A DNA stretch of 64,000 bases. Source: Candidatus Wolfebacteria bacterium RIFOXYD12_FULL_48_21 (GTDB lineage Bacteria; Patescibacteriota; Minisyncoccia; UBA6257; UBA9933). The notes under the pieces were generated by a model. That model did no database searches and was not told the DNA's origin. It was given only the letters and a program-made list of their open reading frames with translations. Location: assembly GCA_001793945.1 (NCBI GenBank), contig MGIW01000005.1, positions 57,923-121,922 of the forward strand. Reading direction: 5' to 3'. The position numbers were made by a program, and so were the translations under genes. Below are positions 2,981 to 59,069 of the stretch, in pieces. The stretch's first letter is position 1. The number at the start of each line of letters is the position of its first letter.

Positions 2981-3090
2981 TGTCATTCCGAGTGAGGCGG
3001 TACTCCGCGGAATCGAGGAATCTGTTTCTGGTTGTGTTATACCGGCGGGTGAGGGCCTGCCCTCGACCTGATCGGAGGCCGGAATCCAGT
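2981..3090. repeat. Composite palindromic repeat element of the GTCATTCC...GGAATCCAG family
   Basis: tgtcattccgagtgaggcgg...ggccggaatccagt. Related copies occur at more than 15 other sites in the window. Confidence 0.8.
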
Positions 3091-3104
3091 ACTACTATAA
3101 CGGT

Positions 3105-3524
3105 ATGAAAAAAAATCTGACAATTTGGGCAATACTCGCGTTGAGCACTATTGGCTTCATTGACTCGGTCTATTTGGCGCTAAAGATCCTTTTGAGCTCT
3201 CCCATAACCTGTTCTGCCTTTGGCGGCGGGTGCGATATTGTCGCGCAATCAAAATATAGCGCCATAGTGGGCGTACCGCTCTCGATGCTGGGTGTGTTGT
3301 TCTACGCGGCGATTATTATCGGCATAACATATTATCTGCAAAGGCGAACAATTAAGTCCCTGGAGTGGATAGCATACGGCTTGCTATTTGGCGGATTGTT
3401 CTCGATTTACCTGCTTGCTCTGCAGGCGTTTGTCATTGAAGCATGGTGCTTGTATTGCGTGGTGGCAGACGCAATCGGGATCGCAAATGCGCTATTGGCG
3501 ATCCGGCTATTGCGAATGAAATAA
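3105..3524 (+). CDS. Vitamin K epoxide reductase (VKOR) family membrane protein
   Basis: Four predicted TM segments. Loop cysteine pair CSAFGGGC. CLYC (CXXC) in the last TM. Sits immediately downstream of the DsbA-like gene. Confidence 0.75.
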   Translation: MKKNLTIWAILALSTIGFIDSVYLALKILLSSPITCSAFGGGCDIVAQSKYSAIVGVPLSMLGVLFYAAIIIGITYYLQRRTIKSLEWIAYGLLFGGLFSIYLLALQAFVIEAWCLYCVVADAIGIANALLAIRLLRMK

Positions 3525-3533
3525 TGGTAAAAA

Positions 3534-3558
3534 CCCCGTTCCTGGGCAAGGAACGGGG
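3534..3558. repeat. Palindromic hairpin CCCCGTTCCT-N5-AGGAACGGGG (copy 1)
   Basis: A perfect 10-bp stem. The same stem recurs at 4779-4804 on the other side of the ATPase gene. Confidence 0.8.
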
Positions 3559-3578
3559 TGGGGGGGGTCTGCATACCC

Positions 3579-3607
3579 TTGACAATTACATAATTATGAT
3601 AAATAAT
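3579..3607 (+). promoter_or_regulatory. Putative sigma70-type promoter upstream of the ATPase gene
   Basis: TTGACA at 3579-3584, with an AATAAT-like -10 element about 17 nt downstream. Confidence 0.35.
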
Positions 3608-4771: not shown

Positions 4772-4778
4772 TGGAGAA

Positions 4779-4810
4779 CCCCCGTTCCTTGCTCAGGAAC
4801 GGGGTTTTTT
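4779..4810 (+). terminator. Hairpin plus T-run terminator (copy 2 of the CCCCGTTCCT palindrome)
   Basis: cccccgttccttgctcaggaacggggtttttt. Confidence 0.7.
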
Positions 4811-4824: not shown

Positions 4825-7800
4825 ATGTTAAAGGGAAGAAAAAAGTTTACTCCGAGCGAAGTGGAATCGGAAGTTTTGGAGTTTTGGAAACAAGACAAAA
4901 CATTCGAACGATCGGTCAAGAAACCTGCTCCGAAAGGGGAGTATGTATTTTACGATGGACCTCCGTTTGCGACCGGATTGCCCCACTATGGGCATATTTT
5001 GCAGAGCGTCATCAAGGATGTTGTTCCGCGATATCAGACCATGAACGGCAAGCGCGTGGAGCGTCGCTGGGGTTGGGATTGCCACGGATTGCCGGTTGAG
5101 AATTTGATCGAAAAGGAGCTGGGGCTTGAGACGAAAAAAGATATCGAAAATCTTGGTGTAGAGACCTTCAACGAAGCCGCGCGAGGCAGTGTTATGTCAT
5201 ATGCGCACGATTGGAAGAATATCATTCCGCGCATCGGCCGCTGGGTGGAAATGGAGAAAGACTACAAGACCATGGATGCGAGCTTTACTGAATCGGTAAT
5301 GTGGGTATTCAAGACGCTTTATGACAAAGGGCTGGTCTACGAAGGTCGCAAATCCATGCATGTGTGCCCGCGTTGCGAGACATCGTTGTCCAATTTTGAA
5401 GTTGCGTTGAACTATAAAGATATCGATGATATATCGACCTATGTAAAGTTTGCCGTTGCGGGAGAAAAAAATACCTACTTCATCGCATGGACGACCACGC
5501 CATGGACATTGCCGGGCAATGTGGCGCTGGCGATCAACGCAAAGGCGGAATATGTGACTGTTGAAGCAAGGACTGAAGCGGGTAAGGAGCGCTATATTCT
5601 GGCGAAGGATCGTCTTGCTATTATCGATGGGGAATATGTGATCGTAAAAACGGTAAAGGGCAAAGAGTTGGCCGGTACGGCATATGTGCCGCTGTTTGAT
5701 TACTATCAAAAAGGCGAATTGGAAAACCGCGAAAATGGCTGGAAGGTCTATGCGGCCGATTTTGTGACCATGGAAGACGGTTCGGGTATTGTGCATATCG
5801 CGCCGGCGTTCGGTGTCGACGATATGGAGGTAGCTCGCAAAGAAAAACTGCCATTTGTGCAGCATGTGGCCATGGATGGGCATTTCAAGCCGGAGGTGAA
5901 GGATTTCCCGGGATTGGCGGTAAAGCCGCGGGGAGACCACAAGGCGACCGATATAGAGGTCATCAAGTGGCTTGCGCACCATGGTAATTTGCTCAAGAAG
6001 CAAAAGCTGGTCCACTCATATCCGCATTGCTGGCGCTGTGAAACGCCGTTGCTGAACTACGCAACATCATCATGGTTCGTGGAAGTGACCAAGATCCGCG
6101 ATACAAAGAACGGGTTGGTGGAAAATAATAAAAAGGTCAACTGGATCCCAGGGCATATCAAAACGGGGCGTTTTGGCAACTGGGTGGCAGATGCGCGCGA
6201 TTGGGCCGTTTCCCGCTCGCGATTTTGGGGTGCACCCATTCCGGTATGGCGTTGCGATGAGTGTGGCGAGATAAAAGTAATGGGTTCCATTGCGGATATC
6301 AAAAAGAATGTGCCGAAATCGGGTAATGTTTATTTTACATTGCGCCATGGCGAGTCGCAGAATAACGCGCTCAATTTGGCAAGCTCAAATCCGAAGAACA
6401 CATATCATCTGACAAATAAAGGCAAGGCGCAGGTAGAAAAATCGGTTAAGGCATTCATAAAGCAGCTCAAGGGAAAGAAGATCGATCTGATCGTATCGTC
6501 TGATTTTGCACGGGCTCACGAAACGGCGGAACTCACCGCAAAGCTGCTCGGGTACGGAGCGAAGATCGTCATCGACAAGCGGTTGCGCGAGATCGACTGC
6601 GGCATTTTTGATGACAAGCCGATCGGTGAGTATCATGCGTATTTTGCATCGCTGGAAGAAAAGTTTATCAAGACCGCGCCGAAAGGAGAGAGTTTGAACG
6701 ATGTAAAAAAGCGCATAACGGAATTCGTATACGAAATTGATGCGAAGTATAAAGGGAAAAACATTTTGATCGTAAGTCATGAGTATCCCATTTGGGCGCT
6801 CTTTGCGGGTGTGCAAGGGTTCGATGGCAGAAAAGCGGTCGCCATGCGCAAGCCGAACAAGGACTTTATCGTCAATGCCGAAATAAAGAAATTGGATTTC
6901 AGCGTTATTCCGCATAACAAAAATTATGAACTGGATTTGCATCGCCCGTACATCGACCGGGTGGAATTGCAATGCGCAAAAGGGCACGCCATGAAGCGCG
7001 TACCGGATGTGTTTGATTGTTGGTTTGAGTCGGGTTCCATGCCGTATGGACAGGCACATTATCCGTTTGAAAATAAAAAGAAATTCGAAAAGAATTTCCC
7101 GGCAGAGTTTATTGCCGAAGCGGTTGACCAAACGCGCGGCTGGTTCTATACACTTATGGTTTTATCGACGGGCTTGTTCGGAAAGCCTGCATTTAAGAAT
7201 GTCATAACGACAGGATTGGTTCTTGCCGAAGACGGACAAAAGATGTCCAAAAAGCTGAAGAACTACCCTGATCCGATGACGATCGTGGACAAGTATGGCG
7301 CGGATGCGCTGCGCTTGTATTTGGTGTCATCGCCGATCGTTCGGGGAGAGGTGCTTAATTTTTCGGAAAAGGGTGTTGATGAATTGTACAAGAAGGTCAT
7401 TTCGCGCCTATGGAATGTATATAGTTTTTATGACATGTACGGGAAACAACTGATAACCAAAAACCAAAAACCAATAACGAAAAATGTGTTGGATACATGG
7501 ATGCTGGGTCGGCTTGATGAATTGATCGCCGAAACGACCGGCGCCATGAATAGCTATGAGCTTGACCGCGCGGTGCGCCCGATCGGTCAGTTTGTCGATG
7601 ACCTGTCGACATGGTATGTGCGTCGCTCCCGCCGCCGGTTCCAGAAGCCGGATGACAAAAAAGACTGGGAGCTCGCATCAAAAACGCTCGCGTATATTTT
7701 GTTTGAAACAAGCAAAGTAATGGCGCCGTTTACGCCGTTCTTTGCAGATGCATTGTATAAGTCGCTGAATACGAAAAAGAACGCATCCGTGCATTTGGAT

Positions 7801-8364: not shown

Positions 8365-8428
8365 TGTCATTCCGGCCCGTTCGTCCGCCAGCTGGCGGAT
8401 CAGGGTAAAACTCCGGCCGGAATCCAGT
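8365..8428. repeat. Palindromic repeat element (GTCATTCC...GGAATCCAG family)
   Basis: tgtcattccggcccgttcgtccgccagctggcggatcagggtaaaactccggccggaatccagt. Confidence 0.8.
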
Positions 8429-10181: not shown

Positions 10182-10291
10182 ATATGTGTTCGCTGTCATC
10201 CTGAGCGGATCCGTCAGCAGACGGAGGAGCCGAAGGATCTGAAGCAGATTCCTCGGCAAGCTCGGAATGACAAGAGGGTGCAATTAAAACC

Positions 10292-11626
10292 ATGTCCCAT
10301 ATTAAAAACACAAAAAAACTCGCAAAAACCGCACTGCGCAAAAAAGCGTTGCAGATTGTTGAAGCAGGCTACGCTGCCATAGAAATACAAACGGCCATCA
10401 AAAGCCGCATCACGGTGGCCAAGGGCGTATTGACGGTGCGCGTCTTTGATAAAAAAGCGGAAGATGTGCGCATAGACCTGAATGACTATAAGCGGGTGTT
10501 TTTGGTGGGTATCGGAAAGGGCTCCGCTCTGGCAACCGTTGCCGTGGCTCGCGTATTGGGCAAGCACCTGACCAAAGGCATCGCACTGGATGTAGAAAAA
10601 CCGAATTTCAAATTTAAAATTTCAAATTTAAAATTATTGACCGGTACCCATCCGTTGCCGTCTCCGAAAAATGTAGCGGCAACGCAAAAGATCATGCATA
10701 TGGTCCGTGACTTAAATACGGATGATTTGGTGATCGTGTTTATGTGCGGAGGCGGCTCGGCACTGGCTGTTGCATCGGATGATGAGCTGCAGGCATCGAC
10801 GACCGTATTTAAAGAGCTAACCAAGGCGGGTGCAAACATCATCGAGCTGAACACGGTACGCAAGCATGTATCTGATATCAAGGGAGGTAATTTGGCGAAG
10901 GCGATCCATCCGGCAACGCTATTGACCTTGATGGCTTCCGATGTAATCGGGAACGATATGGAAATGATCGCATCGGGTCCGACGATATTGGATACGACCA
11001 CCAAGGCGGGTGCAGAGGCGATCCTGAAAAAATATGGCGTATCGAAAAAAGGTATCTCGTTAAAGGAAACGCCTAAGGAAGGCCGCTATTTTAAAAATGC
11101 AAAAAATGTATTGTTTGTTTCCAATAGTGATGCGGTGCGGGCGATGGCTGATATGGCGAAAAGGCTCGGGCTGAAGGCGAAGGTAAAAACACTTATATTT
11201 GAAGGCGAGGCAAAGCATGCGCTCGTGCCGATCGTACGGACGATCAAAAAAGGGGAGGCGATTTTGTTGGGCGGCGAAACAACGGTAACGCTGAGCGATG
11301 TCCCTGCGGGCAAAAAACCGGGCAAAGGGGGTAGAAATCAGGAAGTTGCGCTGGGGGTGATTGCGGCATGTGAGGCAATGCCGGAAAGGCTTGCCGATAT
11401 CGTGGCGATATCATACGCAAGCGATGGGCATGACAATTCCGACGCTGCAGGGGCAATAGCCGACGGCTATGCGCTAAAGGCGGCAAAGCGGGCGGGGCAA
11501 TCGGCGGGCGAGGCATTGGCATTGCATGCATCCTTTAGTTTCTTTGAAAAGAGCGGGAATTTGATACAGGTAAAGAACAAAAGTTTTAATGTGGCGGACT
11601 TGATGCTCGTAATCCGAGGGGAATAG
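10292..11626 (+). CDS. Glycerate kinase, MOFRL family (glycerate 2-kinase / hydroxypyruvate reductase-like)
   Basis: LVGIGKGSALA. GGETTVTLSD...GKGGRNQEVALG. DGHDNSDAAGA. The last two are characteristic MOFRL motifs. Confidence 0.7.
   Translation: MSHIKNTKKLAKTALRKKALQIVEAGYAAIEIQTAIKSRITVAKGVLTVRVFDKKAEDVRIDLNDYKRVFLVGIGKGSALATVAVARVLGKHLTKGIALDVEKPNFKFKISNLKLLTGTHPLPSPKNVAATQKIMHMVRDLNTDDLVIVFMCGGGSALAVASDDELQASTTVFKELTKAGANIIELNTVRKHVSDIKGGNLAKAIHPATLLTLMASDVIGNDMEMIASGPTILDTTTKAGAEAILKKYGVSKKGISLKETPKEGRYFKNAKNVLFVSNSDAVRAMADMAKRLGLKAKVKTLIFEGEAKHALVPIVRTIKKGEAILLGGETTVTLSDVPAGKKPGKGGRNQEVALGVIAACEAMPERLADIVAISYASDGHDNSDAAGAIADGYALKAAKRAGQSAGEALALHASFSFFEKSGNLIQVKNKSFNVADLMLVIRGE
10605..10636. 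repeat. AT-rich 16-bp tandem motif (AATTTCAAATTTAAAA x2) inside the glycerate kinase CDS
   Basis: Related copies lie in intergenic DNA at 20877-20907, 54113-54147 and 61527-61562. Confidence 0.7.
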
Positions 11627-11770: not shown

Positions 11771-13294
11771 ATGTATCAAAATCCATTGTTGTGGATCGTT
11801 TTGGTTGTCGGGGGGGCCGTCGGAGGCTACTACGCTCGGCAGGCAATCGGGCTGAAGAAGAAAAATAATATAGAGCAGATCATCGAGCGACAGATCGATG
11901 AAGCAAAGGTAAAGGCAAAGGAAATAGTGCTCGAGGGTCAGGAGCGGGCGTCTGCGCTCGTAGAGGAGGCAAAGCGCGAAGAGCGCGAGCGAAAGAGCCA
12001 AATAGACCGCATGGAAGAGCGGCTCGTAAAGAAAGAGGAATCGTTTGAGCGGGACCTGCACAATGTCCGCACAAAAGAAAATCGGCTCAACGAAGAAGCC
12101 ACGCAGCTGAAGGCAAAGGAAGGTGCGATTGAAGACCTAAAGCGCAAGGCGGAAGATCTGGTGGAAAAAAGCGCCGGACTGACGACGGAGCAGGCGCGCG
12201 AGATCATTATCAAGCGCACGCAGGAAGCGTATCAAAAGGATCTCGTGCAGATGGTACAAAAGTTGGAGCACGAGCGCGTGGAAGAGCTGGAAAAAAAGAG
12301 CCTCGATATTTTAACGACCGCAATCCAGCGATATAGTCGCAGTCATGTAGCAGAAGTGACTACGAGTATTTTTCACCTGCCGAACGAAGATCTGAAAGGA
12401 AAGATCATCGGCCGGGAAGGGCGCAATATCAAAGCCCTTGAGCGTCTGACGGGCGTGGAGTTTATTATCGACGAGGCTCCCGATTACATTGTCATTTCAT
12501 CGTTTGACCCGATGCGCCGCGAGGTCGCGGGGCTGACGCTTGAAAAGTTGTTGAAGGACGGCCGCATTCAGCCGGCGCGCATCGAAGAAAAGGTGGAGGA
12601 GTCAAAGAATGAGCTGACTAAGCGTGCATTTGAGATAGGCGAACAGGCAGCCCATGAGGTAGGCATTTATGACCTCCCGAAGGAATTGATCCAGCTTCTG
12701 GGTCGCCTACATTTCCGCACGAGCTATGGGCAGAACGCGTTGGTGCATTCCATAGAAGCGGCACATTTAGCGGGCATGATCGCATCGGAGCTTGGCATAA
12801 ATGCGGATGTTTCCCGCAAAGCGGCATTGCTGCACGATATTGGCAAGGCGATAGACCATGAGGTCGCGGGAAGCCATGTGGAGCTTGGACAAAAGATATT
12901 GAAGAAATATAACATCAGTGAAAAGGTGATCCAGGCAATGGAATCGCATCATGAGGATTATCCGTTTGCTTCGCCCGAGGCGTATGTCGTTGCGGCGACC
13001 GACGCCTTGTCGGCAGCCCGACCGGGTGCCCGACGCGAGAATATAGACAATTACATTAAGCGTCTTGAGGAGCTTGAAAAGATCGCAGGCGAGTTTAGCG
13101 GCGTGAAGCAGGCTTATGCAATCTCGGCCGGCAGGGAGCTGCGCATTTTCGTAACCCCTGAAAAGATGGACGATTTTGCCGCATTCCAGCTGGCGCATGA
13201 TGTGGCCAATAAGATCGAAGCCGAGTTAAAATACCCCGGCGAAATAAAAGTAGTAGTCATCCGCGAGATGCGAGCCGTCGAATATGCGCGCTAA
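11771..13294 (+). CDS. rny: Ribonuclease Y
   Basis: N-terminal TM, coiled coil, KH domain (GREGRNIKALE) and HD domain (LLHDIGKA). Confidence 0.9.
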   Translation: MYQNPLLWIVLVVGGAVGGYYARQAIGLKKKNNIEQIIERQIDEAKVKAKEIVLEGQERASALVEEAKREERERKSQIDRMEERLVKKEESFERDLHNVRTKENRLNEEATQLKAKEGAIEDLKRKAEDLVEKSAGLTTEQAREIIIKRTQEAYQKDLVQMVQKLEHERVEELEKKSLDILTTAIQRYSRSHVAEVTTSIFHLPNEDLKGKIIGREGRNIKALERLTGVEFIIDEAPDYIVISSFDPMRREVAGLTLEKLLKDGRIQPARIEEKVEESKNELTKRAFEIGEQAAHEVGIYDLPKELIQLLGRLHFRTSYGQNALVHSIEAAHLAGMIASELGINADVSRKAALLHDIGKAIDHEVAGSHVELGQKILKKYNISEKVIQAMESHHEDYPFASPEAYVVAATDALSAARPGARRENIDNYIKRLEELEKIAGEFSGVKQAYAISAGRELRIFVTPEKMDDFAAFQLAHDVANKIEAELKYPGEIKVVVIREMRAVEYAR

Positions 13295-13497
13295 TGCGCG
13301 CATATGACGGCGAAGTCATGAGTGTAATCGAATGGCGCGCAGTAGAGTACGCCCGATAGGGCGGACACTACTGCGCGCCCTGATCCGCCGGCTGGCGGAC
13401 GAATGGGCGAGCTGTCGAATACGCGCGGTAACCAATGACCGATAACCAATAACTCATAACGGGTAACAAAAAGGCGGGACGCAATGCGTCCCGCTTT

Positions 13498-13620
13498 TGT
13501 CATTCCCGTGAAAACGGGAATCCATGTCCTGATTGTAACGCATACTGGATCCCGTATCGGAGTACGGGATGACAATGCGTTTAGCGTGTCATTCCCGTCC
13601 GCCCACTGGCGGAGGAATCC
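13498..13620. repeat. Cluster of palindromic repeat elements in the rny-hup intergenic region
   Basis: tgtcattcccgtgaaaacgggaatccat...gtcattcccgtccgcccactggcggaggaatcc. Confidence 0.75.
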
Positions 13621-14149: not shown

Positions 14150-14209
14150 CCCGCATCCAAGGGTCATCCTGATCCGCCAGCCGGCGGATTCAGGATCTCG
14201 TGGCATGAA

Positions 14210-14870: not shown

Positions 14871-14880
14871 AAAAGCCGCT

Positions 14881-14910
14881 CAATGAAGCGGCCTTTTTTT
14901 ATACCGTATA
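14881..14910 (+). terminator. Rho-independent terminator
   Basis: aaaagccgctcaatgaagcggccttttttt. Confidence 0.65.
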
Positions 14911-16887: not shown

Positions 16888-17130
16888 ATAGAACGAATAA
16901 AAACCTGTTTAGTTTCAGTCCCTATTCAGAAACCTATAATACCACAAATCCTATTTAAAAGCCATGGGCAGGGCTTCATTCCGGCCTAAGTCTGTCCGCT
17001 ATCTGCCTGTCGGTTGGCAGGTGGCGGACAGTTGGAATCCATATGTCAAAAAATCGCATAAGTTGTCATTCCGGCGGAAGCCGGAATCTATAAAAATCAA
17101 AAAATCGCCGGAGGCGATTTTTCTTCTCTG

Positions 17131-17202: not shown

Positions 17203-17263
17203 TTAGTAAAATTGAGTATACTATATGGAAAGAATAATATCAAGATAATTTTTCTTACATTTT

Positions 17264-17292
17264 TGTCATTCCGGCGAAGGCCGGAATCCAGA
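17264..17292. repeat. Minimal palindromic repeat unit
   Basis: tgtcattccggcgaaggccggaatccag. A similar unit lies at 17060-17090. Confidence 0.8.
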
Positions 17293-17392
17293 GGGTGAAT
17301 ATTTAAGTGGATCAAAGATGGAAAAACATAGATCACGGCCGGAGTTTTACCCTGAGCTTGTCGAACGGACCGGGATGACAAACATTCTTAAT

Positions 17393-18571
17393 ATGAAAAT
17401 GTATTGTAAAAAAACCGCATGCGGGGGTCTGCTCGCAGTCGTATTCTTCGCCGGAGTCGCGTTTCCGGGCGGCGCGGCAAAAGCCGCATCGATAGGAGAG
17501 TTAACGGCGCAGATACAGGTGTTGATGGCGCAGGTCATCGAGTTGCAACGCCAATTATCAGCGATGACAGCAGTAACGCCACAATTATCGGTTAATTTGG
17601 CATATGGGATAAAGGGGAGCGCAGAAGTTCAAAAGTTGCAGCAATTTCTTATCCGGCGGGGATATTTAGGAGAAGGGTTTGCCACGGGGAACTTTTTTTC
17701 GTTGACGCGTGACGCCGTGCGTCGATTTCAGCAGGCGAGTGGGCTGCCAGTCACGGGAGTGGCGGACGAAGAAACAGTAAAGGTTATTAACGACCTGTTG
17801 GTGCGGCAGGCGGAAGTGGATCGAATGGAAGCGGGAAGCGAGACATTAACCGTAAAGGTTGCGACATCAACTCCATTGATCGGGCAGGATGCCGTCCTTG
17901 TGGCGGAGCGGCCGGAATATCAGATCGATTCTCGGCCGGCCTACGATCTGGCGGCCATAGAGCAGGCAACCTTTGACATGGTTAATCTGGAGCGGCAAAA
18001 ACAGGGGCTTGGCATACTCCGGTGGAACGAGCAAGTTGCTACGGTGGCGCGTGCGCACAGTAGCGATCAGGCGGGAGATAACGAGGTAATCACAAACCCC
18101 GATGTGGCATGTCTTTACCCATTCATACGGCACGAGGGATTTGTGTTCGGATTCAAATCGGGAGAGCGGTTGGAGCGCTCGGGCGTGCGCTATCGGCTTG
18201 CAGGAGAAAACATTATCATATTGCCGATGACAAAAAATATGATCTATCGGGCGGAGGAAGCGGTGCCTCCTTGTGCTACGACAAAAGAAACAGAGGGGCA
18301 GCAGGGAGAAACGATCGAGGAGGCCCGTATACGCATTAAGGCGATGCTCGATGAGCGAATCGCCCTCATGCGGGGGCAGGAGCAGCTGGACTGGGCAAAT
18401 AGGGAATGGCGGAGCGTGCAAGAGATCGCAAGTGAATCAACGGCCGATTGGATGGCTTCGGAGGGGCATAAGCGAAACATACTGACCGCGGATTTTGAAG
18501 AGGGTGCTATTGGGGCTGCGGTCGTGAATGATTATATTATCCTGACACAGGTCTTTCTTAAAAAACCATGA
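17393..18571 (+). CDS. Secreted protein with peptidoglycan-binding (PG_binding_1) and CAP/YkwD-like domains
   Basis: Signal peptide MKMYCKKTACGGLLAVVFFAG. VQKLQQFLIRRGYL...GLPVTGVADEET (PG-binding). NLERQKQGLGILRWNEQVATVARAHS (CAP). A start at the internal ATG is preferred. Confidence 0.55.
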   Translation: MKMYCKKTACGGLLAVVFFAGVAFPGGAAKAASIGELTAQIQVLMAQVIELQRQLSAMTAVTPQLSVNLAYGIKGSAEVQKLQQFLIRRGYLGEGFATGNFFSLTRDAVRRFQQASGLPVTGVADEETVKVINDLLVRQAEVDRMEAGSETLTVKVATSTPLIGQDAVLVAERPEYQIDSRPAYDLAAIEQATFDMVNLERQKQGLGILRWNEQVATVARAHSSDQAGDNEVITNPDVACLYPFIRHEGFVFGFKSGERLERSGVRYRLAGENIIILPMTKNMIYRAEEAVPPCATTKETEGQQGETIEEARIRIKAMLDERIALMRGQEQLDWANREWRSVQEIASESTADWMASEGHKRNILTADFEEGAIGAAVVNDYIILTQVFLKKP

Positions 18572-24925: not shown

Positions 24926-25082
24926 TGCACCCGGAGGGACTCGCCCGCGACTCCATTATGCGTCGTCGCGCGTAATGGGTCTGGGCACCGACTCGCGTGT
25001 GCCATCTGATGGTGCTCCGCCAACTGGCGGATCCGTCGTTCGAGTCCCTCGCGTGGGCAAAGCAGTTTGCCCACTCGGGTAC
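24926..25082 (-). pseudogene. tRNA-Arg 3'-end duplicate / tRNA-like remnant with embedded palindromic-repeat hairpins
   Basis: The last about 18 nt (GAGTCCCTCCGGGTGCAC) nearly match the 3' end of the intact tRNA-Arg at 25106-25179. It is preceded by the same ~55-nt trailer that follows tRNA-Lys(TTT). No canonical cloverleaf can be drawn. Confidence 0.45.
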
Positions 25083-25262: not shown

Positions 25263-25380
25263 TGTCATTCCGAGTGGAGCGGTACTCCGTGGAGTCGAGG
25301 AATCTGCCGTATAACATCAGATCCCTCTCCGCCGGCTGGCGGATCGGGATGACAATGCAAAGGGCTCGGGATGACAATGC
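25263..25380. repeat. Composite palindromic repeat element
   Basis: tgtcattccgagtggagcgg...ccgccggctggcggatcgggatgacaatgc. Confidence 0.8.
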
Positions 25381-30004: not shown

Positions 30005-30101
30005 TTAGGTTGTCATTCCCGCACTTTTGCATTGTCATTCCCGTGAAAACGGGAATACAGCATCCCCATGCTACATACTACATACTACACGCTACGCTAA
30101 T

Positions 30102-30845
30102 ATGAAAGTCATTCCAACAATTAACTGCACCGCATTCGCCTGTGTAAAAAAGCGCATAGAAGAAGCGCAAACTTTTTTGCCCAAATCCGCCAGTGGGCGG
30201 AGGTGGCTGCAAATAGATGTGAGTGACGGCAAGTTTAGTGAGTTTGTGTCATCCCCGCCCTCCTCTCTGTCATCCCGGCGAAAGCCGGGATCCACTACTA
30301 ATACCCGCGGAGCGCACGATAGCAGTCCAAAAAGCTGGAACAACCCCGAAAAGCTGGCGGCGTGGCTGAAAGAAAAAAAGATAACCGACATCAATTTTGA
30401 AATACACCTTATGGTAGTAGACCCGAAGCCGTGGGTCATGCGGTGGTTCGAGGCGGGCGCAAAGCGCGTCATCGTGCATGTCGAGGCAATCACCCCGCAG
30501 GACATTCTGTTTTTAAAAGGGTTTGGAAAGGGAAAGGTGGGTATTGCACTGGTTCCGGCAACGCCGCTCAAAAAAGCGGAAAAATATTTGGAGCATTTTC
30601 CATTTGTGCAGCTACTCGCAGTGAAGCCGGGCTATTCGGGACAAAGGTTCGATAGGAAGGTGCTCGAAAAGATCGTGTTTCTGAAAGCGCTCCACCCCGA
30701 TAGTATCGTAGAAATAGACGGGGGAGTGAACGCGACCACCGCACCGGCGATCAAAGACGCGGGCGCCGACATCATCGTTTCCGGTTCGTATATCTTCGAA
30801 GCCAAAGACAAAAAAGCAGCGTACAAGGAATTGAAGAAGATTTAA
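30102..30845 (+). CDS. Ribulose-phosphate 3-epimerase family protein (divergent), carrying an in-frame repeat-element insertion
   Basis: IPTI...IDVSDGKF, HLMVVDP and IDGGVN...SGSYIF align with RPE motifs. The catalytic His in DxxDGHF is replaced by Lys. The segment 30247-30300 is a copy of the palindromic repeat. Confidence 0.5.
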   Translation: MKVIPTINCTAFACVKKRIEEAQTFLPKSASGRRWLQIDVSDGKFSEFVSSPPSSLSSRRKPGSTTNTRGAHDSSPKSWNNPEKLAAWLKEKKITDINFEIHLMVVDPKPWVMRWFEAGAKRVIVHVEAITPQDILFLKGFGKGKVGIALVPATPLKKAEKYLEHFPFVQLLAVKPGYSGQRFDRKVLEKIVFLKALHPDSIVEIDGGVNATTAPAIKDAGADIIVSGSYIFEAKDKKAAYKELKKI

Positions 30846-31073
30846 CGCAAATTGCTCGCCCCGTGGTCCGCCATGGGCGGACTTTACGGGGTCATTTCTG
30901 ACGCGGGTCCCGGCTTTTGCCGGGATAAACTCCAGCAGGAATCCAGTATTCCGTTATCGGTTATCGGTTATAGGTCATGAGTTGTCCCCCATATTGTCAT
31001 TCCCGTGAAAACGGGAATCCAGTATTCTACGCAATTATGTTAAATAGGTGCATAATATAAAAATAAAAAGTAT

Positions 31074-32875: not shown

Positions 32876-33013
32876 GTGTCATCCCGTTGAAAAACGGGAT
32901 CCAGAGCCATTCCCCGCATTGTAATTCCCGCGAGTGAGGGCCTGTCCTCGACTTGATCGGGGACGGGAATCCAGTGTCCCTCGCATTGTCATTCCGGCCT
33001 CCGAGCCGGAATC
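32876..33013. repeat. Cluster of three palindromic repeat units
   Basis: gtgtcatcccgttgaaaaacgggatccag...ttgtaattcccgcgagtgagggcctgtcctcgacttgatcggggacgggaatccagt...ttgtcattccggcctccgagccggaatc. Confidence 0.8.
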
Positions 33014-39524: not shown

Positions 39525-39669
39525 TGTCATCCCGCCCTCCCCCCCCCGTATTGTCATCCCGAGCGCAATGCAATGGAGTCGAGGGATCTGATTTAAGAAA
39601 GCAGATTCCTCGACTGCACGGAGTACTGCGGAGTTTATCCTGAGCTTGTCGAACGGGCTCGGAATGACA
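39525..39669. repeat. Composite palindromic repeat cluster
   Basis: ttgtcatcccgccctccc...ttgtcatcccgagcg...tcctgagcttgtcgaacgggctcggaatgaca. The tcctgagcttgtcgaacgg segment is also found at 17345-17365. Confidence 0.8.
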
Positions 39670-40530: not shown

Positions 40531-40585
40531 ATGGAGGATAAAAAGTGGGCTGGATTTTAATGTGTTTTTATGATATAATATAAAA

Positions 40586-41508: not shown

Positions 41509-41518
41509 GTATGGAATA

Positions 41519-41548
41519 AAAACGCCGCCGGATTTTCGGCGGCATTTT
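41519..41548 (+). terminator. Rho-independent terminator
   Basis: aaaaacgccgccggattttcggcggcatttt. Confidence 0.65.
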
Positions 41549-45013: not shown

Positions 45014-45119
45014 CCCGCCTCAAGCGGGTCATCCCGGACTTGATCCGGGATCTCGTGTAAGGCAAGGAGATTCCGGCTCCCCGTATCGTGGTACGGGGCA
45101 GGCTCCGGGCCGGAATGAC
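45011..45119. repeat. Composite palindromic repeat after lepA
   Basis: gacccgcctcaagcgggtcatcccggacttgatccgggatctcg...gggccggaatgacag. Confidence 0.75.
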
Positions 45120-49895: not shown

Positions 49896-50146
49896 AGGTT
49901 TTTAGTATAGCGGAAAATGGTCATTTTGCAAATCGAATAATGGTGTGTAAGCGGGGAATATAAGGAATTGTCATTCCGACCGTATCCGTCAGCTGACGGA
50001 GGAGTGGAGGAATCTGCAGGCGGGCTCAGATCCCTTTGTAGTCCATTTGGCAGACTCAAGGCATGGCTTCCCCAGATGATAGAAATGGTAGTTTTAAATT
50101 CGTTGTGGGTTGTAGGTTGTCGGTCGTTGGTTTACAATTGGGTAAT

Positions 50147-51593: not shown

Positions 51594-51673
51594 TGTCATT
51601 CTGATCCGCCAGCCGGCGGATTCAGAATCTGATTGATATCGCTAAGAGATCCTGAAATAAATTCAGGATGACA
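51594..51673. repeat. Palindromic repeat element
   Basis: ttgtcattctgatccgccagccggcggattcagaatctg...tcaggatgacag. Confidence 0.75.
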
Positions 51674-52653: not shown

Positions 52654-52836
52654 GGTAGCAACAAACAACGAACAACTGGCTACCGACAACAATCATTATA
52701 CACGCGTTGGTATATTGCGTTGTGGGTTATAGGTTATAGGTTGTCGGTTATTTTGCCGACCTTTTATATAAGTATACCACGGGACGGGAAAAAGGAGTAT
52801 AATAGGGAAAAGGTCATTAATATATTCACAAACAAT

Positions 52837-54112: not shown

Positions 54113-54147
54113 AATTTAAAATTTCAAATTATAAATTTAAAATTTAT
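54113..54147. repeat. AT-rich AAATTTAAAATT-type motif copy
   Basis: aatttaaaatttcaaattataaatttaaaattt. Confidence 0.6.
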
Positions 54148-55410: not shown

Positions 55411-55587
55411 AAAGCAGCATAAAAACACCCCGTGACGGGGTGTTTTTGTTGTATTGTCATTCCCGCGGAAGCGGGAATCCACTTCAATTTCATGCGAAGT
55501 GCATAATGTAATAATTATAGATGCGCGTACCGCATAAAAGTGTAATGGATTCCGGCTCGGAGGCCGGAATGACAGAAAGAAATCGTA

Positions 55588-56694
55588 TTACGATGTTTTG
55601 AGATTCTCAATAAGAGCCAGCTCCAGCGGAACGATGGCAAACGGACTGTAGCGCATTTCGGTATAGGCGACGATCAGCGCTTTGACGAGCGCGATGGTTG
55701 CCTTTTCTTCGATCGATTTACTATGGCGTAAAATAGTATCCACTTCGCGGGAAGTATAGAGCTGTCGAAAATCGTGTTCAAGCTTGGGGCTAAAACGAAT
55801 GGCAAGTACGCGCCGATAGTAGTGGATAAGGTCTTTTGCGAACTGCACGATGTTGTGTCCGTCTTCGTGCACGCCATTGATGTTTGCCAGCGCTCCGGCA
55901 AGATCTTTTGTGATGATCAAGTCGACAAGATCGCTGACACGGGAAAATGCAACACGGCCAAGAATACGCTCGACGCTTTCGACGCTGATCGTTTCTTCCA
56001 TTGCGGCGATCTGGTCGAGGAGTGATTCGGCATCGCGAAAACTGCCGTCCGCTCCGGCCGCGATCAATTCAAGTGCTTCTTCATCGAAGGATATTTTTTC
56101 TTCAGATACGATCTTCTTGAGCTTATCGACAAGTTCCTTAAGGGGGACCTTCTTAAAGTGGAACCGCTGCGCGCGCGAGGCTACGGTCGGCGGAACTTTA
56201 TCATATTCGGTGGTCGCTAAAATAAAGATCGCGTGCCGGGGCGGTTCTTCGAGTATTTTGAGGAGCGCGTTGAATGCGTCCTTACTGAGCTGGTGAACTT
56301 CATCGATGATGAATACTTTGTATGTGTAGGAAGACGGGGATAGGAGTGCTCCTTCTTTAAGACTACGGATATCATCGATCCCGCGGGTCGAGGCGGCATC
56401 GATTTCGATGATGTCCATGGCGTTTCCGCTGTCTATTTCGATGCAGGCTTGGCAGGTGTTGCACGGCTCGCCAAGTTTCTTGAATTCGGGATCAGATAGC
56501 CGTTTTTGGCAGTTTGCGATTTTTGCGATCAGGCGTGCGGTGGTCGTCTTACCGCTTCCGCGGGCACCATAAAAAAGATAGGCATGGCTTAACCGATCCG
56601 TTTTTGCGGCATTTTTGATGATACGGATGATGGATTCCTGACCCAAAACATCCTCGAACCGTTTAGGGCGGTATTTGCGATAGAGTGCAAGCAT
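55588..56694 (-). CDS. dnaX: DNA polymerase III subunit gamma/tau, short (gamma-length) form
   Basis: YGARGSGKTTTARLIAK. Zinc module CQKRLSDPEFKKLGEPCNTCQAC. Sensor motifs. 368 aa. Confidence 0.85.
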   Translation of the reverse strand: MLALYRKYRPKRFEDVLGQESIIRIIKNAAKTDRLSHAYLFYGARGSGKTTTARLIAKIANCQKRLSDPEFKKLGEPCNTCQACIEIDSGNAMDIIEIDAASTRGIDDIRSLKEGALLSPSSYTYKVFIIDEVHQLSKDAFNALLKILEEPPRHAIFILATTEYDKVPPTVASRAQRFHFKKVPLKELVDKLKKIVSEEKISFDEEALELIAAGADGSFRDAESLLDQIAAMEETISVESVERILGRVAFSRVSDLVDLIITKDLAGALANINGVHEDGHNIVQFAKDLIHYYRRVLAIRFSPKLEHDFRQLYTSREVDTILRHSKSIEEKATIALVKALIVAYTEMRYSPFAIVPLELALIENLKTS

Positions 56695-56834
56695 GGTATA
56701 TGGAATAATTGTACGCTATGGCAAGGGTATTTGCCAACGCCTTTACAAAATAAAAGAAAATATGTAGCATGCGAATAGACTGTGCGGAAATGCACGACAT
56801 TAACAAACATACAGAGGACGGGAGGACGGTTGCC

Positions 56835-57425
56835 ATGGCACAATCAAAAAGCGCTTTTTGGGGAGGGTTTGTTATGCTGTCAGGGGCAGTACTGCTGATT
56901 CGCGAAGGGCTGGTGCTGATGCGGGGAGTTGGACAGCAAAAGGTATTCGCTGTGATCAGCGGCGTGCTCGAGCTTCCGATTCCGCAGATTGATACCATAC
57001 TGGGCTGGACACTGAATTATGTAGGCGCGCTGGCGGTAGCGGCCATGACATATGGCATCGCGAAGTATACCATGGACAAAAAAGATGCCGTGCTCGGTTT
57101 TGCCGGGTTTGCTATCGGGTTTGGCCTATTGGCTGCCGGTCTCGCAGGTTCGGCGTGGTTTCCTTGGTTGCTCGTGTCATTGGCAACGGGAATGGCGACC
57201 GCATATGCTTCAGAAAAAGCACGCGCATTTCCCGCATCGGAAGTATTTTCCTTGGAGATGGGTGCGATCATCGGTATGACGGCCAGTGTGGCGCTGGAGT
57301 ATGGACTGTTCATGGCCGCCGTGGTGGAGTTCTGGGTCGGCTGCTTGTACTGGGTAGGCGCTCTCGCAGTCGTTCTGCACTTTGAAGGCAAGAAAAACAG
57401 ATACGACGAAGAGGATAGTTGGTAA
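56835..57425 (+). CDS. Hypothetical polytopic membrane protein
   Basis: SD ggagga before the ATG at 56835. Five or six TM helices. Confidence 0.35.
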   Translation: MAQSKSAFWGGFVMLSGAVLLIREGLVLMRGVGQQKVFAVISGVLELPIPQIDTILGWTLNYVGALAVAAMTYGIAKYTMDKKDAVLGFAGFAIGFGLLAAGLAGSAWFPWLLVSLATGMATAYASEKARAFPASEVFSLEMGAIIGMTASVALEYGLFMAAVVEFWVGCLYWVGALAVVLHFEGKKNRYDEEDSW

Positions 57426-57516
57426 AAAGATCAGCACGGCCGGGGAGAAGACTCCGGCAACAAGAAAGGACCTACTACGGTAGGTCCTTTATTTTTGGGC
57501 TTTTTTGGCGTACAAT

Positions 57517-58845
57517 TTTCGTATTATGGTAGATATTAAATACATTAGGGATAATGTGGAAGCGGTCAAAGGTGCCATTAAAAACAAGCACATTGACCTT
57601 AATTTGGATGAATTATTGGAAGCGGACAAGACGCGTGTCGATTTGCAACAGAAGGTCGAGCGGTTGAGCGCATTGAAGAACGAACTGAATGAGCGCATGA
57701 AAACAGCATCGGCAGATGAGCGGGGACCGATCATCGAAGAAGGGAAAAAGGTAAAGGAAGATCTGCTTGCCGCCGAGCCGGCCTATCGCGAAGCAAAGCA
57801 GAAGTTTGATGAACTGATGGTACGCGTGCCGACCGTACCGTCGAGCGATACGCCGCTCGGCGCGAGCGATGCGGACAATGTGGAAATCTACCGTTGGGGC
57901 GAGCCGAAAAAGTTCGATTTCGAACCGAAAGATCATGTGCAATTGGCGCAGGAGCTCGACATTATCGATTTTGAAAAGGGCGCCAAGGTAAGCGGATATC
58001 GCGGGTATTATTTGAAAAACGAAGGCACGCAGTTGGTAATGGCGTTAATGATGTACGCCGTCAACAAAATGGCGCAAAAAGGATACACGCCCATGATCCC
58101 GCCGACATTGGTCAAAGGGTTCTCGTTGTTCGGAAGCGGGTACTTCAAAGGAATGGATTACGACCCGGAAGTGGACGAGATCTACCAAATAGCGACATCG
58201 GACAAAGATGCCGAAGGCGCAACCGCAAAAGATAAAAAGTTTTTGGTCGGAACCGCCGAGCCGTCATTGCTTGCATATTATTCGGACGAAGTGTTAAAGG
58301 AAGAGCAGCTGCCGATTCGTTTGGCAGGGTACAGCCAGTGCTATCGCAGTGAAATAGGAAGCTACGGCAAAGATACGAAGGGCATGTATCGCGTGCACGA
58401 GTTCATGAAGGTAGAGCAGGTGGTCATCGCCAAAGCAGATGCAGAAGAAGCGAACAAGCTTCAGCAGGAGATGATGGATATCTCGCGCGAGATGCACGAG
58501 GAGCTTGGTTTGCCGTATCGGCAGATACAGATCTGTGCGGGCGACATGAGCGCAGGCAAGTTTCGCGCATTCGATATAGAGGCATGGATGCCGGGCCTGA
58601 ACCGTTGGGGTGAAACCGGGTCGGCGAGCAACTTTGTCGATTGGCAGGCGCGCCGCCTGAATGTAAAATATGTCGATGCGAACGGCGAGCGGAAATATGT
58701 GTATATGTTGAACAACACGGCATTGCCGAGCCCGCGCAGCTTCATAGCGGTGCTGGAGAATTACCAGCAAGCCGATGGCAGTATAGTGATTCCCGAGGTC
58801 TTGCAAAAATACACGGGATTCGCCAAAATAGAAAGACGCAAATAA
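57517..58845 (+). CDS. serS: Seryl-tRNA synthetase
   Basis: N-terminal MVDIKYIRDN coiled-coil arm. Class II motifs (FRxE-like RSEIGS, GLPYRQIQICAGDMSAGKFRAFDIE). A TTG 21 nt upstream is an alternative start. Confidence 0.9.
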   Translation, partial: FRIMVDIKYIRDNVEAVKGAIKNKHIDLNLDELLEADKTRVDLQQKVERLSALKNELNERMKTASADERGPIIEEGKKVKEDLLAAEPAYREAKQKFDELMVRVPTVPSSDTPLGASDADNVEIYRWGEPKKFDFEPKDHVQLAQELDIIDFEKGAKVSGYRGYYLKNEGTQLVMALMMYAVNKMAQKGYTPMIPPTLVKGFSLFGSGYFKGMDYDPEVDEIYQIATSDKDAEGATAKDKKFLVGTAEPSLLAYYSDEVLKEEQLPIRLAGYSQCYRSEIGSYGKDTKGMYRVHEFMKVEQVVIAKADAEEANKLQQEMMDISREMHEELGLPYRQIQICAGDMSAGKFRAFDIEAWMPGLNRWGETGSASNFVDWQARRLNVKYVDANGERKYVYMLNNTALPSPRSFIAVLENYQQADGSIVIPEVLQKYTGFAKIERRK

Positions 58846-59069
58846 TCTTGCGATGCAAACCGCCTGTGAGGGGCGGTTCTGTATGCCAGTGTAGCTTCGT
58901 TGCGACTTGCCGTTGCTAGTGATCCGCCAGCGGGCGGAGAATGTGCAACGCGGCGGAGTGTCGGTTGCGCATTCGTTTTTCGCGCAACCGACGAGAGCAC
59001 TGTGCCCGACAGGGCGCTTGCGAATAGCGAACAGAGAGGAGCATTGAAAATTTGGAAAGCGGGGTAATT

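What the first reader, a model, noticed from the sequence alone, without database searches (positions are those of the whole stretch)
2981..58945. Dispersed family of short palindromic repeat elements (core GTCATTCC-N-GGAATCCAG and GATCCGCCAGCCGGCGGATC variants) occupying most intergenic regions
At least 20 copies were seen, including 2981-3090, 8365-8428, 13498-13620, 14161-14200, 17060-17090, 17264-17292, 25263-25380, 30005-30060, 30985-31025, 32876-33013, 39525-39669, 45011-45119, 49966-50030, 51594-51673, 55449-55478, 55545-55575 and 58915-58945. Copies share inverted termini (TGTCATTCC / GGAATGACA-like) and often nest or concatenate. They usually lie directly after stop codons, where they may act as terminators or mRNA-stabilising stem-loops. 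Partial copies are embedded in a tRNA-like remnant and in an rpe-like CDS. The repeats are not regularly spaced, so this is not a CRISPR array. They look like MITE/REP-like elements that structure this genome.
Basis: seen in the sequence. Interest (0 to 1): 0.5.

Follow-up and report, generated by a model that had tools for sequence, protein, structure and literature searches.

The report
NTS/dRS3-like hairpin repeats in Wolfebacteria
The short repeats scattered between the genes of this groundwater CPR bacterium are real, and they belong to the oriented DNA-hairpin family first seen in Neisseria (dRS3/NTS, "Ssn-related motifs"), which is cut as single-stranded DNA by a small GIY-YIG nuclease, so the kind is known but the host and some details are new.

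Summary
About 30 oriented hairpin units, (T)TGTC-AT(T/C)C(C/T)NNN-loop-NNN(G/A)G(A/G)AT-C(C/T)(A/G), lie in about 21 of 57 intergenic regions, and one lies in-frame inside the rpe gene. That is roughly a third of the intergenic regions, not "most". A second, nested mini-hairpin, TCCGYC-N4-GRCGGA, has 11 copies against 0 expected by chance.

The units match the published Neisseria NTS/dRS3 element and the degenerate "Ssn-related motif" (SRM) of Chenal et al. 2025. They keep the 5' GTC and the 3' C that SsnA needs for cutting and binding. Stems covary with Watson-Crick pairs only and no G-T pairs.

Relatives of this organism show presence/absence differences at the same sites, so the elements turn over. 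All 17 unpaired units sit on the G-rich strand.

The best reading is that these are ssDNA hairpin sites for an Ssn-type nuclease. They are not MITEs, REP/RAYT repeats or canonical terminators. No Ssn gene lies in the window or in the 10 kb of flanks I could reach, and the rest of the genome could not be read.

The verdict is a new member of a known kind, of moderate interest.

The parts
2982..3022 (+). SRM-type unit with a long interior (GTCATTCCGAG...CGAGGAATC). It starts 14 nt after the DsbA stop.
   Evidence: (family D19, 91% identical to 25262-25306)
3036..3086 (+). SRM-type unit with a degenerate head (GTTATACC...GGCCGGAATC). It is homologous to 32921-32971.
   Evidence: (D14, 84% identity)
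8366..8424 (+). SRM unit with a 9-bp stem. It carries the lineage-specific payload (CGTTCG...TCAGGGTAAAACTCC), which in turn carries the mini-hairpin at 8384-8399.
   Evidence: (z -2.8)
10195..10271 (.). Tail-to-tail doublet: a + unit at 10195-10239 (mini-hairpin variant at 10210-10225) and a - unit at 10247-10271.
   Evidence: (z -3.7)
13378..13408 (-). Isolated payload fragment with the mini-hairpin (13384-13399). It is the reverse complement of 8375-8405.
   Evidence: (I7, 94% complementary)
13499..13619 (.). Three units: 13499-13522 (+, exact dRS3), 13548-13573 (-) and 13588-13619 (+, with the mini-hairpin at 13598-13613).
14163..14197 (+). SRM unit whose loop is replaced by the mini-hairpin (14173-14188). 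It starts 13 nt after the HU stop.
   Evidence: (z -4.5)
17065..17088 (+). Simple SRM hairpin lying between two minus-strand genes (sigma factor and tRNA-Gly). It is antisense to local transcription but still on the + strand.
17265..17379 (.). Doublet: a simple + unit at 17265-17288 (3 mismatches from the Neisseria NTS) and a - unit with payload at 17331-17379. The - unit overlaps the annotated 5' end of ORF 17318-18571.
25016..25031 (.). Mini-hairpin TCCGCCAACTGGCGGA inside an unannotated tRNA-like stretch (about 24920-25090, minus strand).
25264..25375 (.). Doublet plus a truncated head: a + unit at 25264-25304, a - unit at 25320-25353 (mini-hairpin 25328-25343) and a - truncated head at 25354-25375.
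   Evidence: (z -2.8)
30012..30057 (+). Truncated head (30012-30022) followed by a simple unit at 30034-30057 (exact dRS3). The 3' C is mutated to A here but is intact in the relative L253.
30186..30201 (.). Mini-hairpin inside the rpe coding sequence. It is a net +12 nt, in-frame change encoding SASGRR, and is absent from L255 and from the 215-aa orthologues.
30240..30329 (+). In-frame insertion of about 84 nt in rpe. It holds a truncated head (30248-30262) and a complete SRM (30268-30295). It is absent from the close relative L253/P0122.
30856..30943 (+). A hairpin with a mini-hairpin-like core (30867-30881), then an SRM unit (30891-30943) whose loop holds a 33-nt payload. The same site in L253 is a simple SRM with loop CGAA.
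   Evidence: (z -4.6)
30996..31019 (+). Simple SRM unit (exact dRS3), 3 mismatches from the NTS consensus.
32878..33013 (+). Head-to-tail array of three units (32878-32901, 32921-32971, 32988-33013), resembling a NIME array.
   Evidence: z -3.5
39526..39668 (.). Truncated head (39526-39540), a + unit (39553-39588) and a - unit with payload (39604-39668), arranged tail to tail.
   Evidence: z -3.4
45028..45119 (.). Doublet: a + unit at 45028-45052 and a - unit at 45069-45119. It starts 14 nt after the lepA stop. The relative L255 has only a decayed remnant at this site.
   Evidence: (z -3.2)
49970..50014 (+). SRM-type unit with the mini-hairpin variant TCCGTCAGCTGACGGA (49985-50000).
   Evidence: (D17)
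51595..51672 (.). Doublet: a + unit at 51595-51629 (mini-hairpin 51605-51620) and a - simple unit at 51648-51672.
   Evidence: (z -5.2)
55456..55573 (.). Doublet between convergent genes: a + unit at 55456-55479 (3 mismatches from the NTS, exact dRS3) and a - unit at 55548-55573, which lies 14 nt after the dnaX stop.
   Evidence: (z -4.8)
58923..58938 (.). Stand-alone mini-hairpin TCCGCCAGCGGGCGGA.

Best explanation
These repeats are a Wolfebacteria (CPR) population of the oriented hairpin repeats known as dRS3/NTS in Neisseria and, more broadly, as Ssn-related motifs (SRM).

Shown here: each unit is a DNA hairpin with an 8-bp stem that starts AT(T/C)C and a loop of 4-6 nt or a larger inserted payload. 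An asymmetric frame (5' TGTC, 3' C) gives each unit an orientation. The units are strongly over-represented, their stems covary, and they are gained, lost and remodelled between close relatives.

Inferred: when DNA is single-stranded (at the replication fork, or as incoming transforming DNA) the forward strand folds. A small GIY-YIG nuclease of the Ssn family, encoded elsewhere in the genome, binds the stem plus the 3' C and nicks a few bases 5' of GTC. This would modulate recombination of repeat-bearing DNA and probably also drive the spread and remodelling of the repeats.

A second mini-hairpin (TCCGYC-N4-GRCGGA) and a lineage-specific payload preferentially replace the apical loops of these hairpins, which produces mosaics.

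In this compact genome the units sit as close to stop codons as a terminating ribosome would allow. They may therefore also serve as 3' RNA hairpins, but that would be secondary.
For: Sequence identity to the described family:
- The published SRM pattern gives 5 hits against 0.12 in shuffles.
- The 28-nt Neisseria NTS consensus gives 3 hits at 3 mismatches or fewer against 0 expected.
- There are 4 exact dRS3 matches.

The features that matter for SsnA (5' GTC for cleavage, C after the palindrome for binding; PMC11893778) are present. Perfect hairpins were ascertained without regard to flanks, and 13 of 13 have GTC on one side and 12 of 13 have C on the other.

Hairpin constraint: 11 different stems are all complementary. 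At variable positions there are 90 Watson-Crick pairs, 0 G-T pairs and 5 mismatches out of 95. Five of 8 stem pairs change on both sides. DNA folding z-scores are -2.8 to -5.2 for most blocks.

The exact 25-mer TTGTCATTCCCGTGAAAACGGGAAT occurs in more than 118 stretches from many phyla. In a viral contig (L038) a GIY-YIG gene is bracketed by such repeats, as in the paper.

Turnover: there is an 84-nt in-frame insertion in rpe with an empty site in a relative about 92-94% identical in DNA (96% in the Rpe protein). The same SRM site carries loop CGAA in one strain and a 33-nt payload in the other.

Strand asymmetry expected for a single-strand process: 17 of 17 unpaired units lie on the G-rich + strand. 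This includes 17065, which lies between two minus-strand genes.
Against: No Ssn or GIY-YIG ORF exists in the window or in the flanks I could read, 7.7 kb to the left and 2.7 kb to the right. The rest of the genome could not be read.

The small GIY-YIG proteins I found in other CPR genomes are not flanked by these repeats. They sit in their own cassettes bounded by CCCCCACACC-type inverted repeats or next to tRNA genes, so they are not evidence for a CPR partner.

Many units here have long interiors that fall outside the published SRM pattern, and SsnA is sensitive to stem sequence.

Orientation is confounded with transcription, because most genes are on the + strand.

No biochemical or expression data exist for this organism.
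Confidence: 0.68

Rival explanations
1. The repeats act at the RNA level. They are transcribed with the upstream gene and act as 3' stem-loops that terminate transcription or protect mRNA from 3' exonucleases. Their abundance reflects selection for that role.
For: The first unit starts 7-17 nt after the stop codon in 7 of 12 cases, with a mode at 13-14 nt, and 14 nt after the dnaX stop on the minus strand. In every such case the unit is in sense orientation. Several intergenic regions consist of little more than the element. No separate canonical terminator was found in those regions within 1-20 kb.
Against: No unit is followed by a T-run, and canonical hairpin-plus-T terminators exist elsewhere in the window (4780-4804, 14875-14892, 17123-17099). 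There are no G-T(U) pairs among 95 variable stem positions, which is unusual for a constraint on RNA. Units also occur in divergent promoter regions (25264-25375, 49970), antisense to both neighbours (17065) and inside a coding sequence. In 238 loci from other genomes the same repeats show no sense bias and no proximity to stops. The conserved unpaired GTC and C have a demonstrated role in protein recognition of ssDNA.
Confidence: 0.15
2. The repeats are REP/BIME-type elements mobilised by a REP-associated tyrosine transposase (RAYT, IS200/IS605-like Y1 enzyme).
For: The architecture is analogous: an unpaired conserved 5' motif followed by a hairpin, inverted doublets, a strand bias and intergenic clustering.
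Against: The head is GTC plus an AT(T/C)C stem, identical to NTS/SRM and not to the GTAG/GGAG REP heads (REP heads from my own knowledge). No Y1_Tnp domain appears among the precomputed Pfam hits for the genes of the window and its flanks. The family has a demonstrated different partner (PMC11893778).
Confidence: 0.06
3. The repeats are double-stranded palindromic sites for a recombinase or integrase (as dRS3 is for the IS110-like integrase of Neisseria filamentous phages) or for a dimeric DNA-binding protein.
For: dRS3 was proposed as a recombinase target and is a phage integration site in Neisseria (PMC1797815; PMC11893778). The Watson-Crick-only stems are equally compatible with a dsDNA palindrome.
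Against: The variable stem positions covary freely across 11 stem variants, which a sequence-reading dimer would not tolerate. The conserved parts are the asymmetric flanks. All unpaired units lie on one strand. No integrase or prophage lies next to the units in the window.
Confidence: 0.07
4. The repeats are MITEs, that is non-autonomous derivatives of a DDE transposon moved through terminal inverted repeats.
For: The doublets have inverted ends (TTGTCAT...ATGACAA). An IS3-like transposase lies on a contig (L252) that shares part of the window's right-hand region.
Against: More than half of the units are single hairpins without inverted ends. No target-site duplications are present, and the two halves of a doublet are different subtypes. 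Filled and empty sites show replacement of 4-6 nt.
Confidence: 0.03

Closest known systems
Neisseria Transformation Sequence (NTS) / Ssn-related motifs (SRM) with SsnA GIY-YIG ssDNA nuclease (Chenal et al., Nat Commun 2025, PMC11893778)
   Same: The core is the same (GTCATTCCCG-loop-CGGGAATCC), with the same oriented frame (5' GTC, 3' C), the same hairpin and the same strong over-representation. Three copies are within 3 mismatches of the 28-nt NTS consensus, and 5 match the published SRM pattern.
   Different: The host is a CPR/Patescibacteria organism, a group the paper does not mention. The base before GTC is T rather than C. Many units carry long or nested interiors that fall outside the SRM pattern. 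No ssn gene was found in the 74 kb I could read. There is a one-strand bias, tight spacing after stops and an in-frame copy in a coding sequence, none of which the paper reports.
dRS3 repeats and neisserial intergenic mosaic elements (NIMEs) (PMC1797815)
   Same: ATTCCC-N8-GGGAAT matches exactly in 4 copies. Units are separated by short, variable segments and form arrays and doublets. There is sequence divergence next to the rpe insertion.
   Different: The arrays are short (2-3 units) compared with the long Neisseria arrays. The interiors are lineage-specific. NIMEs were reported as specific to Neisseria.
REP/BIME/REPIN elements with RAYT transposases
   Same: Each is a hairpin with a conserved unpaired 5' motif. 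They form inverted doublets, are intergenic and are presumed to be handled as ssDNA.
   Different: The head motif differs and no RAYT was found. The doublets here join two different subtypes tail to tail, whereas REPINs are two near-identical inverted copies.
Rickettsia palindromic elements (RPE) (from my own knowledge: Ogata et al. 2000)
   Same: Palindromic repeats are inserted in-frame into conserved protein-coding genes without destroying the reading frame, as in rpe here. Rickettsia is also among the SRM-rich genera, and the exact 25-mer occurs in a Rickettsia endosymbiont (L174).
   Different: RPEs are longer (about 100-150 bp). Their sequence relation to SRMs was not tested here.

Membership tests
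Ssn-related motif (SRM) / NTS | Matches the published degenerate pattern HGTCWYN(0-2)YYVSBRHN(0-5)WNVSBRGN(0-2)RNCYNB or the NTS consensus | tested here: met
   There are 5 SRM matches against 0.12 in 100 shuffles, and 3 NTS matches at 3 mismatches or fewer against 0. Units with long interiors do not match the pattern.
Ssn-related motif (SRM) / NTS | Palindromic hairpin core with conserved non-palindromic flanks that give orientation (GTC 5', C 3') | tested here: met
   With flank-independent ascertainment, 13 of 13 hairpins have GTC on one side and 12 of 13 have C on the other. Covariation is shown.
Ssn-related motif (SRM) / NTS | Genome-wide enrichment over dinucleotide shuffles | tested here: met
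   for the window only.
Ssn-related motif (SRM) / NTS | A cd10448-type GIY-YIG (ssn) gene in the same genome, often flanked by the repeats | tested here: inconclusive
   None is present in the window, in 7.7 kb to the left or in 2.7 kb to the right. The remaining roughly 0.8 Mb of the genome could not be read with these tools.
Ssn-related motif (SRM) / NTS | Bound and cut only as single-stranded DNA, on the forward strand, a few nt 5' of the motif | not testable with these tools
   This needs biochemistry.
dRS3 / NIME | 20-bp ATTCCC-N8-GGGAAT units flanking 50-150-bp variable repeat segments in arrays | tested here: inconclusive
   There are 4 exact dRS3 units. Doublets and one triple array with 20-90-nt spacers exist, but there are no long arrays.
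REP / RAYT | REP-associated Y1 transposase gene, with a conserved GTAG/GGAG-type head | tested here: not met
   No Y1_Tnp domain appears among the Pfam hits of the called genes. The head is GTC. The test covers the window only.
MITE | Terminal inverted repeats plus target-site duplication | tested here: not met
   Single units lack inverted ends. No direct duplications flank the doublets. Comparison of filled and empty sites shows replacement of a few bases.
Intrinsic terminator | G+C-rich hairpin followed directly by a T-run | tested here: not met
   No SRM hairpin scores as terminator-like in 1-20 kb; the one listed site nearby (2964-2978) is a weak 6-bp stem just upstream of the 2982 unit. 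Direct reading of all the units shows the tails CCAG/CTAT/CTCG.
CRISPR array | Regularly spaced identical direct repeats with unique spacers | tested here: not met
   The repeats are dispersed over 56 kb with irregular spacing and on both orientations.

The most novel reading that the evidence does not exclude
The hairpins may form a hierarchy of parasitic ssDNA elements that insert into one another's apical loops. The 16-nt mini-hairpin TCCGYC-N4-GRCGGA and a lineage-specific payload each replace 4-6 nt at the tip of an SRM hairpin, and once inside a coding sequence in-frame. This would imply an undescribed copy mechanism that targets hairpin loops, has no transposase-like ends, and may be driven by an Ssn-type nick. 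The nuclease plus its hairpin would then be a minimal class of single-strand mobile element that is active in CPR bacteria.
Probability: 0.15. Interest if true: 0.7.

Novelty: new member of a known kind. Interest (0 to 1): 0.4.

Why it matters
The work assigns a nuisance class of intergenic repeats to a family with a demonstrated biochemical partner. These repeats also generate spurious ORFs and odd N-termini in CPR annotations.

It extends that family to a candidate-phyla-radiation genome of under 1 Mb, where the repeats take up about 17% of the scarce intergenic DNA.

The empty and filled sites between close strains, the loop-in-loop nesting and the in-frame insertion in rpe give concrete substrates for asking how Ssn-related hairpins spread. 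That question is open even in Neisseria.

If an Ssn gene is present, these bacteria would offer a compact natural system for studying control of recombination through ssDNA hairpins.

Tried and rejected
1. I searched for the partner nuclease in the window. A six-frame GIY-YIG regular expression, phmmer and jackhmmer with a repeat-flanked Ssn-like protein from L038 and an HMM built from four GIY-YIG proteins run over the window and all flanks all found nothing.

2. I spent the single genome-contig scan on the 25-mer, hoping to sample the source genome. The motif turned out to be present across many phyla, and the source genome was not among the rows returned.

3. I took two small GIY-YIG proteins from CPR loci (L186, L208) as candidate partners and searched for their relatives and their loci. 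Of those 80 loci, about a third (some 23-28) are bracketed by a different inverted motif (CCCCCACACC-type), and two other members of the family (L208, L256) lie beside tRNA fragments. None is bracketed by GTCAT hairpins. I rejected them as evidence for a partner.

4. I tried to recognise a source-genome copy by contig counts, sample names or accession numbers. This gave no result.

5. I screened 238 loci for any other protein family bracketed by the repeats. Only the L038 GIY-YIG protein emerged.

6. Rfam gave no match for the repeats or for the tRNA-like stretch.

7. I compared the window with contigs L001-L006 and L127-L130 to look for polymorphism. They are the same population (99.6-100% identical) or contain assembly gaps.

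8. A literature search for the mini-hairpin sequence found nothing.

Full report
**Source and setting.** The window comes from a groundwater CPR bacterium. Exact protein look-ups place it in Candidatus Wolfebacteria RIFOXYD1_FULL_48_65 / RIFOXYD12_FULL_48_21 (GCA_001793935.1 and GCA_001793975.1), and the same sequence occurs on contigs of up to 893 kb. G+C content is about 48%. GC skew is positive across all 64 kb and most genes are on the + strand, so the + strand is presumably the leading strand of one replichore (inference).

**Check of the observation.** GTCATTCC occurs 20 times against 2.15 expected. The frame GTCATYCY-N10-RGRATC occurs 7 times against 0.01 expected. De novo repeat finding recovers the families.

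Against a curated gene map built from the public gene calls, 57 intergenic regions are at least 25 nt long (8,705 nt in total). About 21 of them carry an element, amounting to about 1.6 kb or roughly 17% of intergenic DNA. "Most intergenic regions" is therefore overstated. The low-G+C island at 33.2-36.6 kb has none.

**Anatomy.**
- The basic unit is (T)TGTC, then an 8-bp stem AT(T/C)C(C/T)NNN, then a loop of 4-6 nt (GAAA, GGAA, GAAG, CTCCGA and others), then the complementary arm, then C(C/T)(A/G).
- I ascertained perfect hairpins without regard to their flanks. All 13 carry GTC on exactly one side and 12 of 13 carry C on the other, so the asymmetry is real.
- I then ascertained units only by their invariant parts. 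The variable stem positions give 90 Watson-Crick pairs, 0 G-T pairs and 5 mismatches out of 95. Five of the 8 stem pairs show changes on both sides, across 11 different stems. That alignment was built from perfect hairpins, so its 100% pairing is by construction; one search is the unbiased count.
- Folded as ssDNA, most blocks fold far better than shuffles (z -2.8 to -5.2). A few composite blocks do not (2978-3092, 49966-50034, 17261-17383, 30243-30330).

**Higher-order forms.**
- There are 8 tail-to-tail doublets (-> <-), and none in the opposite arrangement.
- There are head-to-tail arrays, such as 32878-33013.
- Some truncated heads are followed by a C-rich spacer and then a full unit (30012, 30248, 39526).
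- Some units have an enlarged interior. One enlargement is a lineage-specific payload (CGTTCG...TCAGGRTAAA(A)CTCC). The other is a second hairpin family, TCCGYC-N4-GRCGGA, with 11 copies against 0.00 expected.
- Seven or eight of the 12 mini-hairpins sit at the apex of an SRM or of a payload.
- Three comparisons of related units with and without the mini-hairpin show that it replaces 4-6 nt: 8366 against 17379-/39668-, 14163/51595 against 51672-, and rpe in the window against L255.

**Identity.** A full-text search for the core sequence led to Chenal et al. 2025 (PMC11893778). The paper makes these points.
- dRS3 (ATTCCC-N8-GGGAAT) is the core of a longer oriented element, the NTS (CGTCATTCCCGCGMAVGCGGGAATCYRG).
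- Related "Ssn-related motifs" occur across bacteria.
- The 94-aa GIY-YIG protein SsnA binds the NTS only as ssDNA, on the forward strand, and cuts a few nt upstream.
- The C after the palindrome is critical for binding, and the three nt before the palindrome are critical for cutting.
- SsnA lowers transformation by DNA that carries the NTS.

The window gives 5 matches to the paper's SRM pattern against 0.12 in shuffles. It gives 3 copies within 3 mismatches of the NTS against 0 expected, and 4 exact dRS3 matches.

The exact 25-mer TTGTCATTCCCGTGAAAACGGGAAT occurs in more than 118 stretches from Desulfobacterota, Bacteroidota, Nitrospirota, Chloroflexota, Rickettsia, several CPR lineages and others. 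A slightly degenerate version occurs in more than 120 IMG/VR contigs. In L038 a 97-aa GIY-YIG gene is bracketed by such units, which is the NTS-ssn-NTS arrangement. The paper does not mention Patescibacteria, strand bias or copies in coding sequences.

**Turnover.** The rpe product is 247 aa, whereas its orthologues are 215 aa. Alignment to solved Rpe structures places about 31 extra residues after the DGxF strand. Alignment A3 shows two differences.
- A 28-aa insertion is absent from P0122 (96% identical protein) and from the 215-aa orthologues, and is present in variant form in P0123 and P0124.
- A 4-aa insertion (SASGRR) is encoded by the mini-hairpin.

At the DNA level the filled site carries about 84 nt that include a truncated head and a complete SRM (30268-30295). 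The empty site in L253 keeps the ancestral NPN codons. There is no target duplication, and substitutions cluster just upstream of the junction. All the length variants keep the reading frame.

Downstream of rpe, the same SRM site has loop CGAA in L253 and a 33-nt payload in the window. In the more distant relative L255, the aminotransferase-Mur and lepA-divIC spacers hold related units that are differently built or decayed.

**Position and orientation.** All 17 unpaired units are on the + strand. This includes 17065-17088, which lies between two minus-strand genes. The first unit begins 7-17 nt after the upstream stop codon in 7 of 12 cases, with a mode at 13-14 nt, and the minus-strand unit at 55573 lies 14 nt after the dnaX stop. 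No unit has a T-run, and canonical terminators occur elsewhere. In 238 loci from other genomes the same repeats show neither a sense bias nor proximity to stops (this used crude ORF calls). These two features are therefore specific to this compact genome.

**The partner.** No GIY-YIG ORF exists in the window or in the flanks I could reach (L249, L252). Two small GIY-YIG genes near SRMs in other CPR loci (L186, L208) looked promising. However, 80 metagenome loci of that protein family carry almost no GTCAT hairpins near the gene. About a third of them (some 23-28 of the 80) are instead bracketed by a CCCCCACACC-type inverted pair, and two other members of the family, L208 and L256, lie beside tRNA fragments. 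I therefore do not count them as evidence. Whether this Wolfebacteria genome encodes an Ssn protein remains open.

**Conclusion.** The repeats are members of the dRS3/NTS/SRM hairpin family. The most likely mechanism, inferred from the conserved recognition features, is recognition of the folded forward strand by an Ssn-type single-strand nuclease. The MITE, REP/RAYT and canonical-terminator readings fail their defining tests in the window. A secondary role as 3' RNA hairpins is not excluded. The nesting of the mini-hairpin and the payload in hairpin loops, and the in-frame colonisation of rpe, are the new details.

Noticed in passing
L258-L337 (metagenome loci), L186:3900-4260, L208, L256: Small (81-84 aa) CPR GIY-YIG genes form tiny cassettes. 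They are bracketed by an inverted pair of (A/C)CCCCCACACC(AA/TG)TT-like motifs, one 10-45 nt before the ATG and one about 20 nt after the stop. In L208 and L256 they sit between duplicated tRNA fragments instead. They look like mobile or homing-type cassettes and are distinct from the GTCAT hairpin system.
   Followed up: partly
window 24920-25090 (minus strand): An unannotated stretch starts like the 3' end of the neighbouring tRNA-Arg (TGTGCACCCGGAGGGA) and is partly conserved next to a tRNA in the relative L255 (about 1142-1206). ARAGORN and Rfam do not call it. It carries the mini-hairpin at 25016-25031. It may be a disrupted tRNA or an unknown small RNA.
   Followed up: partly
window 40473-40558 and 41451-41536: Direct repeats of 86 nt (87% identical) bracket a DUF6922-AbiEii toxin-antitoxin-like pair. 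The first repeat includes the 3' end of the Mur ligase gene. In the relative L255 the Mur ligase gene is followed directly by lepA, so the roughly 2.6-kb segment 40527-43192 (TA pair, a hypothetical gene, and a LAGLIDADG-like ORF overlapping the lepA start) is an insertion.
   Followed up: partly
window 10604-10635, 20875-20906, 54113-54146, 61527-61558: Tandem heptamer arrays AATTTAA, about 4.6 copies each, lie in AT-rich spots. They are related to one another on both strands.
   Followed up: no
window 7455-7484, 13429-13460, 24628-24659, 24683-24729, 24873-24919, 30952-30983, 33074-33120, 50102-50132, 52725-52751: This is a second set of heptamer-like arrays (GGTTATA / TAACCTT / GGTTGTC). 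Most lie in intergenic regions next to tRNA genes or SRM units. Their function is unknown.
   Followed up: no
window 33200-36600: A low-G+C island (35-41%) holds small hypothetical genes and a PemK-type toxin and carries no hairpin repeats. It is probably recently acquired.
   Followed up: no
window 3529-3558 and 4780-4809: Nearly identical 30-nt terminator-like hairpins (97% complementary to each other) flank the AAA_14/DUF4143 ATPase gene.
   Followed up: no
L249:1598-1951 (about 6 kb left of the window) and L252:6281-7584: A gene with bAvd/23S_rRNA_IVP Pfam hits (the family is known from diversity-generating retroelements, from my own knowledge) lies upstream of the window. An IS3-like transposase lies on contig L252, which matches the window's right end but diverges from it beyond about 60.6 kb.
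   Followed up: no
window 13291-13575 (-), 24837-25352 (+), 17318-17380, 39447-39764 (-): ORFs, or the 5' ends of ORFs, that are made largely of repeat sequence. One was called as a 171-aa gene in a public assembly. These are likely annotation artefacts. The true start of the 17318-18571 gene may be the ATG inside the reverse-complemented head, GGGATGAC.
   Followed up: partly
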